A stretch of DNA of 64,000 nt, taken from IMG/VR virus record IMGVR_UViG_3300005365_000003, positions 10,730 through 74,729 of that record. The stretch is one strand, 5' to 3'. A program made the translations under genes and the position numbers. This document shows positions 23,173 to 28,974 of this stretch, one piece after another. Each line of letters begins with the position of its first letter. Positions within the stretch are counted from its first letter, which is position 1. The DNA comes from a virus (taxonomy: Duplodnaviria > Caudoviricetes). The notes below the pieces were generated by a model, which saw only the letters and a program-made list of their open reading frames with translations, was not told the origin of the DNA and did no database searches.

Positions 23173-23568
23173 ATGAAGCGACCAACAACTCCTATCCGAG
23201 ACAAATCAATCCTGTCTTACATTGAATACCTTGAAGACAGGTTGTCTAAGTACGAAAAGTCTCCTTACGTTAAGTCTTATCTTACAGTTCTTGGTCAAAT
23301 AAATGACTGGAACGATCAGCTTACTATTAAAAAAGTGATTGTTGAAGGAATGGGAGAGCAAACTGTTGGTAAAATAAATTTATTTGCCGATTCTTCCAGT
23401 AAAGAGTTTGATAGAGTACATAAATACTTCACTGAAATGAAGCCTTATTTTGAACAGCTTGCTTACCTAAGAAAGCTAATGACTACAGAGGAGAAGGAAG
23501 AGGTGAATAATAATGAAAAGAAGCCGCTATCAGAGGAAAGTGCTGAGAATTATCTTGTCAAATCATAA
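23173..23568 (+). CDS. hypothetical protein, candidate terminase small subunit
   Basis: Position only: helical 131-aa ORF overlapping terL start by 1 nt. Confidence 0.45.
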   Translation: MKRPTTPIRDKSILSYIEYLEDRLSKYEKSPYVKSYLTVLGQINDWNDQLTIKKVIVEGMGEQTVGKINLFADSSSKEFDRVHKYFTEMKPYFEQLAYLRKLMTTEEKEEVNNNEKKPLSEESAENYLVKS

Positions 23569-25736
23569 TGCTTATACCTAAGTATAATAATTTCCAACAA
23601 GAGAGAAAAATTGGTGAGCATGTTGTTTTTTTACCAGACCCACCTGATATTAAAAAAATAGCCTACCGGGATTTACCACAAGATCAACAATTTTTCAGAA
23701 GAGTTTATTTACCTAATGATTGGAGTTCCCTTTCAAAAGAGGATAAGAATAAATTTGCTAATGAGCAGTGGGATATAAGGGGGCGGGAGGGAGAAAAGGG
23801 TGAAGGGTTTTGGTTTATGAATAACGGTAATTTAGAGTGGATGTCCCCAACGCATCACTTTTATTCTAATTGGTGGAGGATAGGAAAAGTAAAGATTCCT
23901 AAAGAATATGTGCTTGATCCAAGAGACATTTATTATCCATTCTTTACAGATGCAGATAGAGACTGGCACTACCTAGCAGATGATTGTTATTGGAATAAGA
24001 ATTGCGGAGGATTATTCACTATTGAGTTCAGGAGGGGGGGCAAAACGTACCGCTGCGCTTCTTATCAATACGAAAAAGTTTCTAAGACGCATGATGCTAA
24101 AGGCGGAACTCAGTCACGGGATGATGCTGATAGCTACAACGTATTTGAAAAAATAATTTACGGATGGAGAAATCTTCCTCCATTTTTCAAGCCGGTAGAT
24201 ACCGGGAATAACAACCCTCTTACTTCATTGATATTCGATGAACCTAAAAAGATAAGTACAAAAAATCTTCAAAAGACTTATTCTGACATTCTACACAGCT
24301 GGATAGATTACGGAAATGCCAGTGAAGGTTATTATGATGGTAAGGAGCAAATCATAAATATTCAGGATGAGATTGGAAAAATTAATAACAAGCGAGGAAT
24401 TGATCTTATAGAGAGAATACGGGTTGTTATCGAGTGCTGCTTTATTATGGGAGAGAAGGTGGGAATGGTTCTTGGAACAACAACTGTAGAAGAACAAGAA
24501 AAGGCTGGCGGAAAGCAGGCAAAGGATTTGTATACCAGGTGTACTACTATAGACGAAGAGGCTAGCAGCCTTCCAAATATATTCCCTACAGGAAAGGCAT
24601 TGGATGAATTTGGCTTCACTCAGTCTAAAATGAAGAGATACTTTAGGTCATCTAATTACGGTTACCTGGGTTCTGATATTAACGGAAAATGCTTGGTTGA
24701 CAGATATGGATATTCTAGGATTAAAGACGCTACAGAGCATTTTTTAAAGAGAAGGAAGAATAAAAAAGGAGCTGAATTGTCTTCAGAAAAAAGAAAGTTT
24801 CCACTTAAAATTGAAGATTGCTGGGTGAGTGATTCTAAAAAGTCGGTTTATGATACTACTAGAATTGAAGAGCAAATAGAATATAATCAGACTATTCCTA
24901 ATAGTATGATTGTTACAGGTAATTTTCAATGGAAGGATGGAATAAAAGATACTACTGTAGAATGGAATCCAAGTCCTGAAGGAATGTGGAAAATTTCATG
25001 GCTCCCTAAATTTGAAGACAGAAATAAATTTGATATAGTTTATGGTAAAAAGTCTCCAAAAAACACAGAAACAGGATGCTTTGGCTTGGACCCTTATGAT
25101 AATAAAATAACTGTAGATAATCGTAAGTCGGACGCTGCTTCGTACGGCTTTAGAAAATTTGATCCAATGTATCCAAATGAATCAGGAATATTTATTTCTG
25201 AATATGTTAATAGACCAAAACTTCCAGAGATCATGTGGGAGCAGATGATAATGCAGGCGGTTTTTTTTGGATGGGAGATTTTAATTGAGAATAATCGCAT
25301 AGGAACTATTAATTACTTTAGGATGCGTGGATTTGAGAAGTATTTAATGAAAAGGCCAGAAGAGACTAAAAATGAATCCGGTTATGGATCAAAGAAAGAA
25401 GAAGAATATGGGATCGCTCTTTCAGGGGAAGACGCCAGGATGGCGCTTATTTATGCAACAGAAAGCCACATTGCATCTAATGTAGGAATGATAGAAAAAG
25501 AAAATCAAACCCCTTATATGGGAAAATGTTATTTTGATAAACTGTTAAATCAATGGCTTGATTTCGATTTCGATAAAAAATGGACCGCCTTCGATTGCAT
25601 GGTGGGAGCTGGTCTTGCATTACTTGGGTCACGAAAACATATTCCAAAAAAAATTGATAACAAGCCAATACAATTATTTCAGCAATATAGAGCAAGCGGA
25701 ACTGGATATGTGGCTATAAAAAACAATACAAAATAA
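23568..25736 (+). CDS. terL: terminase large subunit
   Basis: FRRGGKT Walker A-like, IQDEIGK Walker B, FGLDPYD nuclease motif, ENNRIG, FDCMVG. Confidence 0.9.
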   Translation: MLIPKYNNFQQERKIGEHVVFLPDPPDIKKIAYRDLPQDQQFFRRVYLPNDWSSLSKEDKNKFANEQWDIRGREGEKGEGFWFMNNGNLEWMSPTHHFYSNWWRIGKVKIPKEYVLDPRDIYYPFFTDADRDWHYLADDCYWNKNCGGLFTIEFRRGGKTYRCASYQYEKVSKTHDAKGGTQSRDDADSYNVFEKIIYGWRNLPPFFKPVDTGNNNPLTSLIFDEPKKISTKNLQKTYSDILHSWIDYGNASEGYYDGKEQIINIQDEIGKINNKRGIDLIERIRVVIECCFIMGEKVGMVLGTTTVEEQEKAGGKQAKDLYTRCTTIDEEASSLPNIFPTGKALDEFGFTQSKMKRYFRSSNYGYLGSDINGKCLVDRYGYSRIKDATEHFLKRRKNKKGAELSSEKRKFPLKIEDCWVSDSKKSVYDTTRIEEQIEYNQTIPNSMIVTGNFQWKDGIKDTTVEWNPSPEGMWKISWLPKFEDRNKFDIVYGKKSPKNTETGCFGLDPYDNKITVDNRKSDAASYGFRKFDPMYPNESGIFISEYVNRPKLPEIMWEQMIMQAVFFGWEILIENNRIGTINYFRMRGFEKYLMKRPEETKNESGYGSKKEEEYGIALSGEDARMALIYATESHIASNVGMIEKENQTPYMGKCYFDKLLNQWLDFDFDKKWTAFDCMVGAGLALLGSRKHIPKKIDNKPIQLFQQYRASGTGYVAIKNNTK

Positions 25737-25768
25737 AAACCCCGGATATTTACTTCCAGGGCTTTTAT
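25735..25768 (+). terminator. imperfect hairpin between convergent genes
   Basis: AAAAACCCCGGA...TCCAGGGCTTTT. Confidence 0.5.
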
Positions 25769-25787
25769 TGAATGCTATGCTTTAATT

Positions 25788-25994
25788 TTACTCTCTCGAA
25801 GCCGTTTCGTCAATCCAATTTTCAACATCGGCATGCCACACTTCTTTTAATCGTTCTTCAACTGAAAGTGAACTTAAGGCCACGTTTCCATTCTTATCGG
25901 GAACGTTCCAATCTTCAAATCGGGCTTTTCTTTTTTCAGACAACAAGTAAGAGCCAAAACTTACAAGGTCTTTTCTGTTAAAATAAGTAACCAT
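25788..25994 (-). CDS. hypothetical protein with own promoter
   Basis: YFNRKDLVSFGSYLLSE.R...V.HAD..NW family motif; TATATTTG at 26069-26076. Confidence 0.7.
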   Translation of the reverse strand: MVTYFNRKDLVSFGSYLLSEKRKARFEDWNVPDKNGNVALSSLSVEERLKEVWHADVENWIDETASRE

Positions 25995-26109
25995 TTTGTT
26001 TTATTTTTTGATTTTGCCTACTCTTGAAAGGATTTTCGGCTTCCTCCTGCGTATATTATGCGCTTATTCAAATATATTAAATATTTTTTTGTTCAATTAA
26101 ATTATTTTA

Positions 26110-26560
26110 TACATTTGTATTACCGAATCGAAATAGAAACGAGCAATGCAGGAGTGCAACTCGCCATTGATAGATCGGTCGACAAACAGTCGTTCTATGA
26201 CATACACAAACTTCCTTGAAAAGTTTGAAGTAAAAATACGGGAGGGGCAACTTTCCCTCCATATTTGGCCCTTCATAAATCTATTCAAGGTGGATTTTTG
26301 AGGGGCTTCTTATTTTTAGTAAGACAGTCCTGGCACTTCAGGAGAAACACCGGTTGGATCAGGTAATTGTAGTTTTCAGAAATACTGAAAACAAAGAATT
26401 GTATCCGCATTTAAAAACACCATTTTCACAATGGTCATTTATAATAGTTTTGGCATAATCAAAACGTTCTATTAGGGGCTCCCAGCCACCACACGTGATG
26501 TTTTCTTATTCATAAACGAGCAAACTGTCTATGTTTGTTGTGATAAAAACAAAAAAAAGA
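26110..26560 (+). ncRNA. candidate structured non-coding RNA
   Basis: TACATTTG -7 element at 26110-26117 followed by consecutive hairpins and no convincing ORF. Confidence 0.4.
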
Positions 26561-26578
26561 AATATTATAAATTATTCC

Positions 26579-26586
26579 TACCTTTG
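26579..26586 (+). promoter_or_regulatory. sigma-70 -7 element upstream of portal
   Basis: TACCTTTG. Confidence 0.6.
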
Positions 26587-26607
26587 AAGAATTAACGCAA
26601 ATTCTCA

Positions 26608-28974
26608 ATGGCAGAATATGACAACAAGGCTATAATTGGTTTCCCTGACCCACTAGCTAATCCTGAAGTAAAAATAAGCTATAAATACGGACTTGCATAC
26701 GCCAAAGCTATGTGGTCCGCTTACACCAGAAATCAACTATGGTGGAACGGAAGGAAGCAGCGCGATATAATCAACAGAAAATACGCTGAAGGGCTAGAAT
26801 CAATCGAGAAGTATAAGGATAGGCTAGATATGCAGGGAGATACATCATGGCTTAACCTTGATTTCAATCCGGTAACACGTATAGCTAATTTGGTCGATAA
26901 TGTCGTAGGAAGGCTTATGGCCCAGGATTACAAAATACAGTGTAATCCTATTGATCCGGCGTCAAGAGCTAAGATTGACGATGCTAGAGATGCTATGAGG
27001 GCTAATATGCTTCTAAAGCCAATAAACGATGTAGTAGAACCACAGACAGGTATTTCGCTTATTCCTAAAGATAAACCCATTCCAGAATCAGACGAAGAGG
27101 CGGATCTTTTTTTTCAGCTGAATCATAAAGCAGGGGAGTCTATTGCTATGGAAGAGGGGTTGGCAGCGGTGTTTTACAATACGGAATTTGAAGATACGAA
27201 GAGAAAAGTTATACGGGATGCAGTGGTGCTTAAAAAACTTTCTATTCATGTTAAGTACGATGAGAATTACAACATCATCCCGGAATACGCCGATCCTGTT
27301 GACCTTGTTTATCCTTATTCAAAATATGAAGATTTCAGAAATGTTCCTTATGTAGGGAAAATCACAAAATATACCATAGGTCAGCTTGCTCAGATGACAA
27401 ATGAGTTTGATGAACCTACATTATGGAAGATAGCAAACGAACAGGCCGGTAAGAATAACAATCCTAACTGGCAATGGGGAAATACGTATGAGGGATATTA
27501 TTGGGATAACCAGGTATATGCTGGGCGTCCGTATGATGATTTTAATGTAAGCGTGATGGAATTTTATTTTCTGTGCGCGGATACACAGAAGTATGTTAAG
27601 AAAGATACTTCAGGAGATAGGTTCTATTTCGATAAAAAAAATCCTAACTACAAAATAGATAAAAGCAGCAATACAGAGGCGAGTAAGAAAAAAGAAATGC
27701 TCGAAAGAGCTGTTCAATATTTATATGAAGGGAAATGGGTTATAGGAACTGAATATATGTATGGGTATAAAAAATGCTCAAATATTCCGCGTGAAAGAAA
27801 GCTAGGTGCTTATTCTCCAAAAGCAGAGCTTCCCATCATAATGATTTATCCGGATATTTATGACATGCAGAATAAGTCACTCGTAGAACGCCTTATCCCA
27901 CATGAAGATCAGATAAATCTTATCCATCAGAAGCAGCAGCAGTTTTTGATAAAAGCAAAACCTCCAGGAGTAAAGATTGATTTAGAGGGAATGGAAAACA
28001 TCACGGTTGCTATGGGTAGCGGGTCTATGACATCTATCGACATAACGAAGATGTATGAGCAGACGGGTAATTATATTTTCAGAAGCAAGGACAAGGCAGG
28101 AAACATTATCAATAGCTCTGTTATTGAGCCGCTGGATAATGGAATAGGAAGAGGATTTATGGAACTATTCGAGGCATACAATCAGGAGCTACAGAAGATG
28201 AATGATGTGATCGGGTTTAACTCAGCTACAGATGGTTCCACTCCGGATCCAAAGAGTCTTGTTGGGGTACAGAAGCTATCGCTAAATGCAACCAATTCAG
28301 CGCTGCGTCCACTTAACTTTGCTTATATACGACTTATTGAGAGAGTATCTAAAAGGCTTACTCTCATGATACAGGATAGTATTGAATTTGAGAATCAAGC
28401 TTTTATTAATTCTATAGGAAATCAAGCAACTAGTCTTATAAAATTAGGGAAGGATATTGCTATGAATGAATTTGGTATCAAGGTAGAGTTATTGCCGGAT
28501 GAGGAAGAGAGAGCGCAAATAAATCAGGATATTTCTATTGCTCTTGCTAATAAAGAGATCACGATGGCAGATGCTATAATGGTTCGCCAGGTTCTTAGGC
28601 AGAATACCAAACTTGCAGAGCAATTGCTTGTGCTTAGGGAGAAAAAGAATATTGAAAATGCTAAGGCGGAGGCGGCTAATAACGCTAAGATTAACGGAGA
28701 GGAGCAGACTAAGGCGGCTCAGGCAGCAGCAGAGGCAAATACCCAATCTGCTTTAGCTATAGAAGAAGCCAAGAGAAAGACTATGCAATTTGAATATGAG
28801 TTGAAGTCAAAACTTTCAGCACAAGAACATCTGCAAAAAATGCCAGAGATTGAATTAGCTAATCAAGGTAAAATTGAAATCGCTCATAAGAACGCGGAGG
28901 GTGGAATTGTTAAGGCAGGTATTGCAGCACATGCTAGCATGAGTAAGGCAAGTGATAATAAGGAGGCGGCTTAA
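26608..28974 (+). CDS. portal protein
   Basis: 788 aa after terL; FPDPLA..E.K..YGLAYAKAMW N-terminus, helical core, A/E/K-rich barrel-like C-terminus as in Bacteroidota podophage portals. Confidence 0.85.
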   Translation: MAEYDNKAIIGFPDPLANPEVKISYKYGLAYAKAMWSAYTRNQLWWNGRKQRDIINRKYAEGLESIEKYKDRLDMQGDTSWLNLDFNPVTRIANLVDNVVGRLMAQDYKIQCNPIDPASRAKIDDARDAMRANMLLKPINDVVEPQTGISLIPKDKPIPESDEEADLFFQLNHKAGESIAMEEGLAAVFYNTEFEDTKRKVIRDAVVLKKLSIHVKYDENYNIIPEYADPVDLVYPYSKYEDFRNVPYVGKITKYTIGQLAQMTNEFDEPTLWKIANEQAGKNNNPNWQWGNTYEGYYWDNQVYAGRPYDDFNVSVMEFYFLCADTQKYVKKDTSGDRFYFDKKNPNYKIDKSSNTEASKKKEMLERAVQYLYEGKWVIGTEYMYGYKKCSNIPRERKLGAYSPKAELPIIMIYPDIYDMQNKSLVERLIPHEDQINLIHQKQQQFLIKAKPPGVKIDLEGMENITVAMGSGSMTSIDITKMYEQTGNYIFRSKDKAGNIINSSVIEPLDNGIGRGFMELFEAYNQELQKMNDVIGFNSATDGSTPDPKSLVGVQKLSLNATNSALRPLNFAYIRLIERVSKRLTLMIQDSIEFENQAFINSIGNQATSLIKLGKDIAMNEFGIKVELLPDEEERAQINQDISIALANKEITMADAIMVRQVLRQNTKLAEQLLVLREKKNIENAKAEAANNAKINGEEQTKAAQAAAEANTQSALAIEEAKRKTMQFEYELKSKLSAQEHLQKMPEIELANQGKIEIAHKNAEGGIVKAGIAAHASMSKASDNKEAA

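What the first reader, a model, noticed from the sequence alone, without database searches (positions are those of the whole stretch)
26110..26560. Promoter-driven, hairpin-packed region between terL and portal: candidate new structured RNA
Seen: + strand TACATTTG (26110-26117), divergent from the - promoter at 26069-26076, followed by adjacent stems. These are AATG/GAGT-GCA-ACTC/CATT (26145-26168), ATAGA/CGAC..GTCG/TCTAT (26170-26198), AAACTT/AAGTTT, AAATA..GGAGGG/CCCTCC..TATTT (26234-26266), GGCCCTTCA..AAATCT/GGATTT..TGAGGGGCT (about 26267-26309), CCTG/CAGG, GTTTTCAG/CTGAAAAC (26372-26392), ACCATT/AATGGT and CAAAC/GTTTG. The longest + ORF I could read is about 51 aa and unconvincing. I could not match it to tRNA, tmRNA, RNase P or a group I core. 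Inference: a 280-450 nt phage ncRNA; its position next to the motor genes invites comparison with phi29 pRNA, though antitoxin, sponge or leader roles are equally possible.
Basis: partly seen in the sequence, partly recalled or inferred. Interest (0 to 1): 0.8.

Follow-up and report, generated by a model that had tools for sequence, protein, structure and literature searches.

The report
Phage leader RNA with kissing-loop terminator
The gene-free stretch before the portal gene of this uncultured Flavobacteriia-type phage holds a conserved, folded, non-coding RNA of about 195 bases whose terminator hairpin loop pairs with an upstream loop, a design that recurs in related phages and has no named family.

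Summary
The + strand folds better than shuffles (z -3.7 overall, -5.3 at 26200-26320). Rfam and ARAGORN find nothing there.

Only one close relative is available (L012/L013, portal 89% aa). There the region is 93% identical over 26118-26320, against 79-82% in terL and portal and 57-62% at third codon positions. Changes sit in loops or are compensated.

The main new result is a loop-loop pairing. The H3 loop CCUUGAA is the exact complement of UUCAAGG in the loop of terminator-like hairpin H5. In L012 the two loops are CCGAGAA and UUCUCGG, so two pairs covary.

The same design (host-type promoter, upstream loop or segment complementary to the apical loop of an intrinsic terminator) recurs in two modules of unrelated sequence. 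One of these also covaries.

The 51-aa ORF is not conserved as a protein. Two of the listed hairpins are not conserved.

Best reading: a promoter-proximal leader or short RNA with a kissing-loop terminator that gates read-through towards portal. Membership of the phi29 pRNA family is not supported. There are no expression data, and the RNA itself is known from only two genomes.

The parts
26088..26117 (+). Bacteroidota-type promoter: -33 TTTG (26088-26091), 18-nt spacer, -7 TACATTTG (26110-26117). Predicted transcription start near 26121.
   Evidence: Pattern match. The stretch 26094-26215 is 100% identical in L012. The same promoter is present in L014, where homology stops at 26119 and a different cargo follows. 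TAnnTTTG sits 21-30 nt before the ATG of several genes in the window.
26121..26318 (+). Predicted non-coding transcript 'RNA A' of about 195 nt, from the start site to the U-tract.
   Evidence: z -3.88 in the window and -4.35 in L012. It is 93% identical to L012, against 79-82% in terL and portal. A covariance model built from it hits only the window and L012.
26124..26181 (+). 5' domain: a long irregular hairpin, invariant between the two phages.
   Evidence: RNAalifold consensus. No substitutions occur here, so covariation gives no information. It lies within the 122-nt exact run.
26207..26227 (+). Hairpin H3: a 7-bp stem (CAAACUU/AAGUUUG) with the 7-nt loop CCUUGAA at 26214-26220. This loop is one kissing partner.
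   Evidence: The loop is CCGAGAA in L012.
26234..26266 (+). Hairpin H4 (AAAUA..GGAGGG / CCCUCC..UAUUU), a spacer hairpin.
   Evidence: The stem is invariant. The loop differs by 4 substitutions and a 3-nt insertion in L012. On the minus strand it is scored as terminator-like.
26267..26307 (+). Hairpin H5, terminator-like. It has an 8-bp G+C-rich lower stem, a 2x2 interior loop, a 6-bp upper stem and the 9-nt loop AUUCAAGGU. UUCAAGG (26284-26290) is the other kissing partner.
   Evidence: Hairpin energy -16.7 kcal/mol with a T-rich tail. The upper-stem pair C26281-G26293 becomes U-A in L012, and two wobble pairs become Watson-Crick pairs. The loop is UUCUCGG in L012.
26308..26319 (+). U-rich tail UCUUAUUUUUAG after H5.
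   Evidence: Conserved in L012, where C26309 is U, making the tract more U-rich. The same tail type follows the terminator of the other leader module at genome 7731.
26346..26392 (+). Conserved block with hairpin B1 (GUUUUCAG/CUGAAAAC, 26372-26392).
   Evidence: 85% identity. The B1 stem is kept, with one G-C to G-U change. The loop is changed and carries a 1-nt indel.
26442..26474 (+). Hairpin B2: 12 bp in two segments.
   Evidence: U26445-A26471 becomes G-C in L012, a compensatory change. Two further one-sided changes keep pairing. The G-U pairs favour the + strand.
26475..26578 (+). Conserved non-coding block. It contains the hairpin GGGGCU/AGCC.CC (26475-26490), hairpin B4 (26519-26539) and an A-tract.
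   Evidence: 90-93% identical over 26460-26539. There is a 2-nt indel in the B4 loop. No conserved promoter motif lies inside it.
26579..26586 (+). Proximal promoter of portal: -7 box TACCTTTG, 22 nt before the portal ATG at 26608.
   Evidence: It is conserved in L012 and in L001, which lacks RNA A.
25788..26076 (-). Divergent neighbour. It comprises the promoter TATATTTG (26069-26076), a DUF805b leader motif (26015-26049) and a 68-aa gene (25788-25994).
   Evidence: Rfam RF02914 scores 43 bits against a gathering score of 35.6. The ORF has a positive coding score and at least 157 homologues.

Best explanation
Proposed mechanism. A host-type (Bacteroidota sigma-A) promoter at 26088-26117 starts a + strand transcript near 26121. 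The transcript folds into a 58-nt 5' domain and hairpins H3, H4 and H5. H5 followed by UCUUAUUUUU acts as an intrinsic terminator, so the default product is a non-coding RNA of about 195 nt. The 7-nt loop of H3 pairs with the apical loop of terminator hairpin H5 as a kissing complex, either within one molecule or between molecules. I propose that this contact sets how efficiently H5 terminates. The module would then work as a promoter-proximal attenuator or leader. It would gate read-through from a strong promoter across the second conserved segment (26320-26578) into portal and the late genes. The short terminated RNA may itself feed back in trans through the same loops.

Shown: conservation, fold, covariation, recurrence of the design, and the absence of a conserved ORF.

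Inferred: transcription, termination, and the regulatory effect of the kissing contact.
For: 1) Constraint. RNA A is 93% identical between the window and L012. terL is 79%, portal 82%, and third codon positions 57-62%. The longest exact run in 6.4 kb of alignment is 122 nt, at 26094-26215. It is flanked by a diverged stretch (58-72% identity, with a 17-nt indel), which argues against one recent transfer.

2) Structure. z is -3.9 and -4.35 in the two phages. The + strand folds better than the - strand. Stems contain G-U pairs.

3) Covariation. Of 16 substitutions, 6 form 3 doubly compensated pairs and 2 turn wobble pairs into Watson-Crick pairs. Random placement gives at least 3 compensated pairs with P = 3.5e-4.

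4) Kissing loop. A 7-nt complement between two loops arises by chance with P = 0.003. It is kept in L012 through two covarying pairs.

5) Recurrence.
- 'Leader 2' occurs at G000 genome 7583-7745 and at L015:2923-3085. It pairs a 5' segment GUGUGCGC with the terminator loop GCGCACAC. In L015 these are GUACGCGC and GCGCGUAC.
- The L016 gap pairs the hairpin loop GCUAACA with the terminator loop UGUUAGC.
- Per-family shuffle P values are about 0.06 (0.10 for the L012 copy), 0.001-0.003 and 0.03.
- Among 32 terminator-like hairpins in the whole genome, only these two leader terminators have a G/C-containing upstream complement of 7 nt or more.

6) Cis role. In G000 (GIY-YIG-like ORF), L015 (105-aa ORF) and L016 (HNH), the module's promoter is the only TAnnTTTG motif between the preceding gene and the downstream gene. 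In L015 the ATG follows the terminator by 38 nt.

7) Region B. It has a + strand hairpin with a compensatory change but no conserved promoter of its own.

8) Module boundary. Homology with L014 breaks at 26119, which is the predicted start of the RNA.
Against: - There are no expression data.
- RNA A itself is known from only two genomes, so statistical power is low. With the MFE fold of the window alone, substitutions are not significantly depleted from paired positions (P = 0.18), and 3 marginal pairs are broken.
- Portal has its own conserved promoter at the canonical distance. That promoter is also present in L001, which lacks RNA A, so portal does not need read-through.
- No NusG-like or Q-like antiterminator is encoded in the phage.
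- The effect of a loop-loop contact on termination is conjecture.
- Covarying inverted repeats could also be explained by a co-evolving DNA-binding protein.
Confidence: 0.45

Rival explanations
1. Stand-alone trans-acting small RNA, an 'RNA moron'. The 195-nt RNA is the functional product. H5 is simply its terminator, the kissing loop compacts or stabilises it, and the invariant 5' domain binds a host or phage protein or RNA.
For: - It is bracketed by its own promoter and terminator inside a hypervariable accessory island between terL and portal.
- The 5' 95 nt are 100% conserved, more than structure alone would need.
- Portal has its own promoter.
- The cargo downstream of the promoter is swappable in L014.
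Against: - No target was found. Duplex energies against all phage translation start regions are no better than for shuffled RNAs.
- Sister modules of the same design sit directly upstream of genes that lack their own promoter.
- Region B appears to be constrained as + strand RNA without a promoter of its own.
Confidence: 0.3
2. Packaging or assembly RNA working like phi29 pRNA.
For: - Two covarying complementary loops are the feature that mediates pRNA self-association (PMC5066667).
- The position is next to terL and portal.
- A coaxial 7-bp kiss between H3 and the 16-bp H5 looks strained within one molecule. This is my inference and was not computed.
Against: - There is no Rfam pRNA match even at E <= 10.
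- The phage has a full-length 722-aa large terminase and a 74.7-kb genome with direct terminal repeats. According to PMC5066667, only phi29-like phages are known to need such an RNA.
- Close relatives (L001, L015-L017) lack the RNA while keeping the same terL and portal.
- The same loop design occurs at a locus far from the packaging genes.
Confidence: 0.04
3. Small protein gene. The ORF 26146-26301 (51 aa) lies 29 nt after the -7 box and ends inside the terminator hairpin.
For: The spacing from promoter to ATG matches that of real genes in this phage, which is 21-30 nt. The ORF is open for 51 codons.
Against: - In L012 TGG becomes TAG, so the ORF ends after 41 aa. Every nucleotide difference inside the ORF changes the protein.
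- The first 24 codons are identical at all synonymous sites, so the constraint is on nucleotides.
- The coding score is negative.
- It has no homologue and no Pfam match.
Confidence: 0.04
4. DNA-level element. The inverted repeats are binding sites for a dimeric regulator, or form an origin or recombination site. The 'covariation' then reflects co-evolved protein specificity.
For: Covarying inverted repeats are also expected for operator half-sites. The conserved block 26460-26545 lies 35-120 nt upstream of the portal promoter.
Against: - The repeats sit exactly in the apical loops of two separately conserved hairpins. They are 63 nt apart.
- G-U pairs and the stronger + strand fold point to RNA.
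- The same arrangement involves a terminator loop in three unrelated modules.
Confidence: 0.07
5. Decaying remnant of a lost accessory gene or homing-endonuclease cassette, of which only terminators survive.
For: The island holds 0-5 different genes in relatives, including HNH endonucleases. The stretches 26380-26459 are only 52-65% identical and carry 3- and 10-nt deletions.
Against: RNA A is conserved like second codon positions. tblastx finds no protein remnant. Compensatory changes are present.
Confidence: 0.05

Closest known systems
Antisense-RNA transcription attenuators of plasmids (pT181 type)
   Same: A hairpin-loop kissing contact decides whether a terminator forms in a 5' leader. 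The recognition hairpin has an interior loop below the upper stem, a feature that PMC3753616 reports as necessary. H5 has a 2x2 interior loop in that position.
   Different: In pT181 the partner loop belongs to a separate countertranscript from the opposite strand. Here both loops lie on the same transcript, and one of them is the terminator's own apical loop. No antisense promoter is conserved.
Lambda PR'-6S RNA-tR' leader, and the HK022 put and P4 CI / P1-P7 c4 leader RNAs (from my own knowledge, not tested here)
   Same: In lambda, a constitutive promoter followed closely by a terminator yields a short RNA of about 190 nt ahead of late genes. In P4 and P1/P7, complementary segments within one leader transcript covary between related phages.
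   Different: No Q-like or NusG-like protein is encoded. Rfam families, which include the c4 RNA, give no match. The host is in a different phylum with different promoters. The pairing involves a terminator loop.
phi29 prohead/packaging RNA (pRNA)
   Same: A phage-encoded RNA of similar size with two complementary loops that covary (PMC5066667). The position is close to the packaging genes.
   Different: There is no match to the family model, no three-way junction closed by a helix joining the 5' and 3' ends, and a different packaging machinery with a full large terminase. The RNA is absent from close relatives that share the same terL and portal.
DUF805b RNA motif (Rfam RF02914)
   Same: It lies in the same intergenic region and is a leader motif of Bacteroidota type.
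   Different: It is on the opposite strand (26015-26049), is 35 nt long, belongs to the divergent 68-aa gene, and is not part of the finding.

Membership tests
phi29 pRNA (Rfam Phage_pRNA) | Match to the family covariance model | tested here: not met
   cmscan of 25500-27000 at E <= 10 lists 7 matches, none of them to pRNA. The whole window at gathering threshold gives only DUF805b.
phi29 pRNA (Rfam Phage_pRNA) | Two loops with complementary sequences that covary and mediate self-association | tested here: inconclusive
   The 7-nt complementarity and two covarying pairs are met. Whether the pairing is between molecules cannot be tested with these tools.
phi29 pRNA (Rfam Phage_pRNA) | Three-way junction with helix A formed by the paired 5' and 3' ends (PMC5066667) | tested here: not met
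   The only predicted closing helix (26120-26123 with 26319-26322) lies beyond the U-tract. H3, H4 and H5 are consecutive hairpins.
phi29 pRNA (Rfam Phage_pRNA) | Phage with phi29-type packaging machinery | tested here: not met
   terL is 722 aa and covers nearly all of phrog_6681. The genome is 74.7 kb with direct terminal repeats. The nearest cultured relatives are Cellulophaga and Flavobacterium podophages.
Intrinsic (Rho-independent) terminator | G+C-rich hairpin immediately followed by a U-tract | tested here: met
   H5 has an energy of -16.7 kcal/mol and a G+C-rich base, followed by a U-rich tail (CTTCTTATTT as printed from the scan's hairpin end at 26305). The tail is conserved and more U-rich in L012. 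Actual termination was not tested.
Bacteroidota sigma-A promoter | -33 TTTG and -7 TAnnTTTG with a 17-21 nt spacer | tested here: met
   Exact match at 26088-26117. It is conserved in L012 and L014. The motif count in the window is not above chance, so the support comes from position and conservation.
Protein-coding small ORF | ORF conserved in length, with mostly synonymous change | tested here: not met
   There is a stop at codon 42 in L012, and all differences change the protein. The coding score is negative. No homologues were found.
Any Rfam 15 family (riboswitch, ribozyme, sRNA, ROOL/GOLLD, group I/II intron) | Match to a covariance model | tested here: not met
   for the window. for the sister modules in L025, L015 and L016.

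The most novel reading that the evidence does not exclude
Flavobacteriia podophages carry a previously undescribed class of RNA device, the 'kissing-loop terminator'. An upstream loop pairs with the apical loop of an intrinsic terminator on the same transcript. The loop sequences are freely re-coded between modules and between phages, which gives each module its own specificity. The accumulating short RNA could then act in trans on nascent leaders. This would be a protein-free timer or dosage counter that switches late genes (portal) and selfish nuclease genes on.
Probability: 0.25. Interest if true: 0.8.

Novelty: new variant of a known kind. Interest (0 to 1): 0.62.

Why it matters
Regulation in phages of Bacteroidota is almost unexplored, and no RNA-based control element has been described for this podophage group. 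The finding gives a defined element of about 195 nt with a specific, mutable 7-bp contact. That contact can be broken and restored in simple experiments. The same logic is found in three sequence-unrelated modules, two of them placed before homing-endonuclease-type genes. If the contact controls termination, it would be a compact natural RNA switch with programmable specificity. That would be of interest for phage gene timing, for control of selfish nucleases, and as a part for synthetic RNA circuits of the pT181-attenuator type. If the RNA instead multimerises, it would be a second example of the rare self-associating phage RNAs.

Tried and rejected
- Homologue search for RNA A:
  - blastn against 50,697 phage records found no match.
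  - Four exact-pattern scans of IMG/VR found none.
  - One scan of genome contigs gave a single hit (L024), in a contig with 66% G+C around the match. The model scores it 7.9 bits (E 0.12), so it is a chance 20-mer.
  - The covariance model R1 hits only the window and L012 among 17 sources and the whole L001 genome.
- Portal-based scans of IMG/VR and JGI metagenomes gave no closer relatives than L001.
- Homologues of the 68-aa neighbour sit in unrelated phage gene arrays without the RNA, so the two are not a conserved pair.
- No paralogue of the region exists in the genome.
- A target search by duplex energy against 150 phage translation start regions gave a best value of -45 kcal/mol. Shuffled RNAs gave a mean best of -47, so there is no signal.
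- tblastx for gene remnants found nothing below E = 0.1.
- The TAnnTTTG motifs at 26445 and 26530 are not conserved in L012, so I rejected them as promoters.
- I could not fetch the part of the L013 genome homologous to the 7.6-kb locus. The cluster look-up returned only the window's own proteins.
- The first genome-wide terminator scan timed out and was redone. The first genome-wide z-score scan covered only 23.8 kb.

Full report
**Setting**

The window is bases 10730-74729 of a 74,729-bp IMG/VR virus record with direct terminal repeats. terL (23568-25736, phrog_6681) and portal (26608-28974, phrog_6547) flank the finding. The nearest cultured phages by portal protein, at 28-32% identity, infect Cellulophaga, Flavobacterium, Tenacibaculum and Maribacter. 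The major capsid protein of relatives is of the SU10 type.

Between terL and portal lie, in order:
- a bidirectional terminator (25732-25769);
- a 68-aa gene on the minus strand (25788-25994);
- a 613-nt gap (25995-26607).

**Observation**

The complete promoter TTTG-N18-TACATTTG (26088-26117) is one of four such matches in 64 kb. The bare 8-mer is not enriched. However, it lies 21-30 nt before the ATG of several genes, so position matters more than count.

No ORF in the gap exceeds 63 aa. All have negative coding scores under a model trained on the phage's own long genes, whereas the 68-aa neighbour scores at the 98th percentile.

Folding of 26110-26560 gives z -3.72 on + and -2.98 on -. A 120-nt sliding scan places the excess at 26200-26400, with + strand z of -5.3, -4.2 and -3.3. 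The rest is only -1 to -2.

ARAGORN finds nothing. Rfam finds only DUF805b on the minus strand at 26015-26049, which is the leader of the 68-aa gene.

**Relatives**

The terL-portal junction is a hypervariable island.

| Locus | Portal identity | Content between terL and portal |
|---|---|---|
| L001 | 74% | four unrelated genes |
| L015 | 77% | five genes, including an HNH endonuclease |
| L016 | 69% | a 501-nt gap plus an HNH gene |
| L017 | 69% | about 80 nt |
| L005 | 43% | about 120 nt |

None of these contains a homologue of the gap.

Homologues of the 68-aa protein led to one close relative. It was recovered twice, as L012 (a Logan contig) and L013 (NCBI JAWVGW010000419.1, 73.9 kb). Its portal is 89% and its terL 87% identical at the protein level, and the whole gap aligns.

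A third fragment, L014, shares the 68-aa gene and the promoter. Homology stops at 26119, after which a different open frame follows. The cargo therefore begins exactly at the predicted transcription start.

**Constraint**

| Region (window vs L012) | Nucleotide identity |
|---|---|
| terL | 79% |
| portal | 82% |
| third codon positions | 57-62% |
| 26118-26320 | 93% |
| 26321-26578 | 80% |

The longest exact run in 6.4 kb is 122 nt at 26094-26215. The stretch just upstream (26020-26099) is only 58-68% identical and has a 17-nt indel. A single recent transfer is therefore an unlikely cause of the identity.

The 51-aa ORF (26146-26301) is not conserved as a protein. In L012 it stops after 41 codons (TGG to TAG), and every difference changes the protein. 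The first 24 codons are identical even at synonymous sites. It has no homologue or Pfam match.

**Structure and covariation**

RNAalifold on 26118-26325 gives a 58-nt 5' domain (26124-26181), H3 (26207-26227), H4 (26234-26266) and H5 (26267-26307). There are 66 pairs and none is broken.

Differences from L012 fall as follows:
- in the H3, H4 and H5 loops, including a 3-nt insertion in the H4 loop;
- at C26281-G26293, which becomes U-A;
- at two wobble pairs, which become Watson-Crick pairs.

Both RNAs fold well, with z -3.88 and -4.35.

The H3 loop CCUUGAA (26214-26220) is the exact complement of UUCAAGG (26284-26290) in the H5 loop. In L012 the loops read CCGAGAA and UUCUCGG. Two adjacent pairs therefore changed on both sides and all 7 pairs are kept.

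Statistics:
- A 7-nt complement between any two loops arises in 0.3% of loop shuffles.
- Three or more doubly compensated pairs from 16 randomly placed substitutions arise with P = 3.5e-4.
- The evidence has limits. Using only the MFE fold of the window, substitutions are not depleted from paired positions (P = 0.18). Three marginal pairs break, one of them in a spurious hairpin within the U-tract.

Downstream of RNA A:
- Hairpins B1 (26372-26392), B2 (26442-26474, with U-A to G-C plus two one-sided changes) and B4 (26519-26539) are kept.
- Indels of 1, 2, 3 and 10 nt rule out coding.
- The hairpins CCTG/CAGG and ACCATT/AATGGT are lost.

**A recurrent design**

H5 is followed by UCUUAUUUUUAG.

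That locus has a promoter, a roughly 125-nt leader and a terminator, followed by 350 nt of very structured sequence and a GIY-YIG-like ORF. I call this module 'leader 2'. It has a copy, 87% identical, inside the terL-portal island of L015, 38 nt before a 105-aa gene.

- In leader 2 of G000, the 5' segment GUGUGCGC is complementary to the terminator's apical loop GCGCACAC.
- In L015 the two are GUACGCGC and GCGCGUAC. Again two adjacent pairs covary.
- In the L016 gap, a third and unrelated module has a TACATTTG promoter. Its hairpin loop GCUAACA is complementary to UGUUAGC at the tip of a terminator hairpin that is followed by CUGUAUUUUAGG.

Shuffle tests of the whole upstream segment against the apical 14 nt give P of about 0.06 for RNA A (0.10 for the L012 copy), 0.001-0.003 for leader 2 and 0.03 for L016. 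As a control, I scanned all 32 terminator-like hairpins in the genome. Only the two leader terminators have a G/C-containing upstream complement of 7 nt or more.

In all three other placements, the module's promoter is the only TAnnTTTG between the preceding gene and the downstream gene.

**Interpretation**

The finding is a real, selected, non-coding RNA element on the + strand. It starts at a host-type promoter and ends, at least by default, at a terminator whose apical loop pairs with an upstream loop.

Sister modules sit directly before genes that lack their own promoter. The segment after H5 also shows RNA-type constraint without a promoter of its own. For these reasons I favour a cis-acting leader or attenuator that gates read-through towards portal (0.45). 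The second choice is a purely trans-acting small RNA (0.30).

How the kissing contact acts is inference. It could stabilise termination. It could also be competed in trans by the accumulating short RNA.

The nearest mechanistic parallel is the kissing-hairpin attenuator of pT181, whose recognition hairpin also needs an interior loop near the top (PMC3753616). Here, however, both partners are on one transcript. The phage encodes no NusG-like or Q-like protein.

**pRNA**

The family tests fail:
- there is no match to the family model;
- there is no three-way junction closed by the paired ends;
- the phage has a full large terminase;
- relatives with the same terL and portal lack the RNA.

I put a pRNA-like role at 0.04.

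**Novelty**

No Rfam family, no cultured-phage homologue and no paper found in the library describes this element. It is a new variant of known kinds, namely leader or attenuator RNAs and phage small RNAs.

The scan had noted this same stretch once more, in another reading of the same genome. It had not noted it on other DNA.

The main weaknesses are the absence of expression data and the very small number of sequences.

Noticed in passing
window 26015-26049 (-), 25788-25994 (-): An Rfam DUF805b motif (43 bits, gathering score 35.6) forms the leader of a 68-aa gene that is not a DUF805 protein. The protein family has at least 157 homologues, mostly in phage-like arrays of small genes. The motif is also present before the orthologues in L012 and L014, but not before three distant homologues that were checked.
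   Followed up: partly
G000 genome 7581-8081 (L025:1082-1582), outside the window: A second gene-free locus. It holds 'leader 2' with a kissing-type terminator, then about 350 nt of G+C-richer, very structured sequence (z -5.6 for the 501 nt; one 150-nt window at -7.2), then a weak GIY-YIG-like 129-aa ORF. It has no Rfam match.
   Followed up: partly
L015:2923-3085 versus L025:1084-1245: Leader 2 is 87% identical between two phages whose portals are 77% identical. It sits at different genomic positions: in L015 inside the terL-portal island, before a 105-aa gene. It therefore behaves as a mobile promoter-leader-terminator cassette.
   Followed up: partly
terL-portal junction in L001, L005, L012, L015, L016, L017: The junction is a hypervariable island holding 0-5 accessory genes. 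These include HNH endonuclease genes (L015:1667-2164 on the minus strand, L016:4410-4922) and an FGE-sulfatase-like protein in L001. L012 and L014 carry an extra 157/158-aa gene after terL that the window lacks.
   Followed up: partly
L015:4620-4700 and L016:4300-4365: The roughly 500-nt gaps of L015 and L016 are both structured (z -3.1 and -4.1). Near their 3' ends they share a hairpin with a G-run arm, a U-tract and a following C-rich run (36 nt at 78% identity).
   Followed up: no
L014:1-321 (-): In L014 the same promoter as at 26088-26117 is followed directly by a frame that stays open for 107 codons to the contig end. It has no Pfam match. Its ATG lies only 4 nt after the -7 box.
   Followed up: no
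window 26051-26066: A small hairpin lies just downstream of the minus-strand promoter (GCGUA/UGCGC). It has covarying arms in L014 (GCACA/UGUGC) and is deleted, as a 17-nt gap, in L012.
   Followed up: no
window 25732-25769: A bidirectional terminator-type hairpin with an A-tract and a U-tract lies between the convergent terL and 68-aa genes.
   Followed up: no
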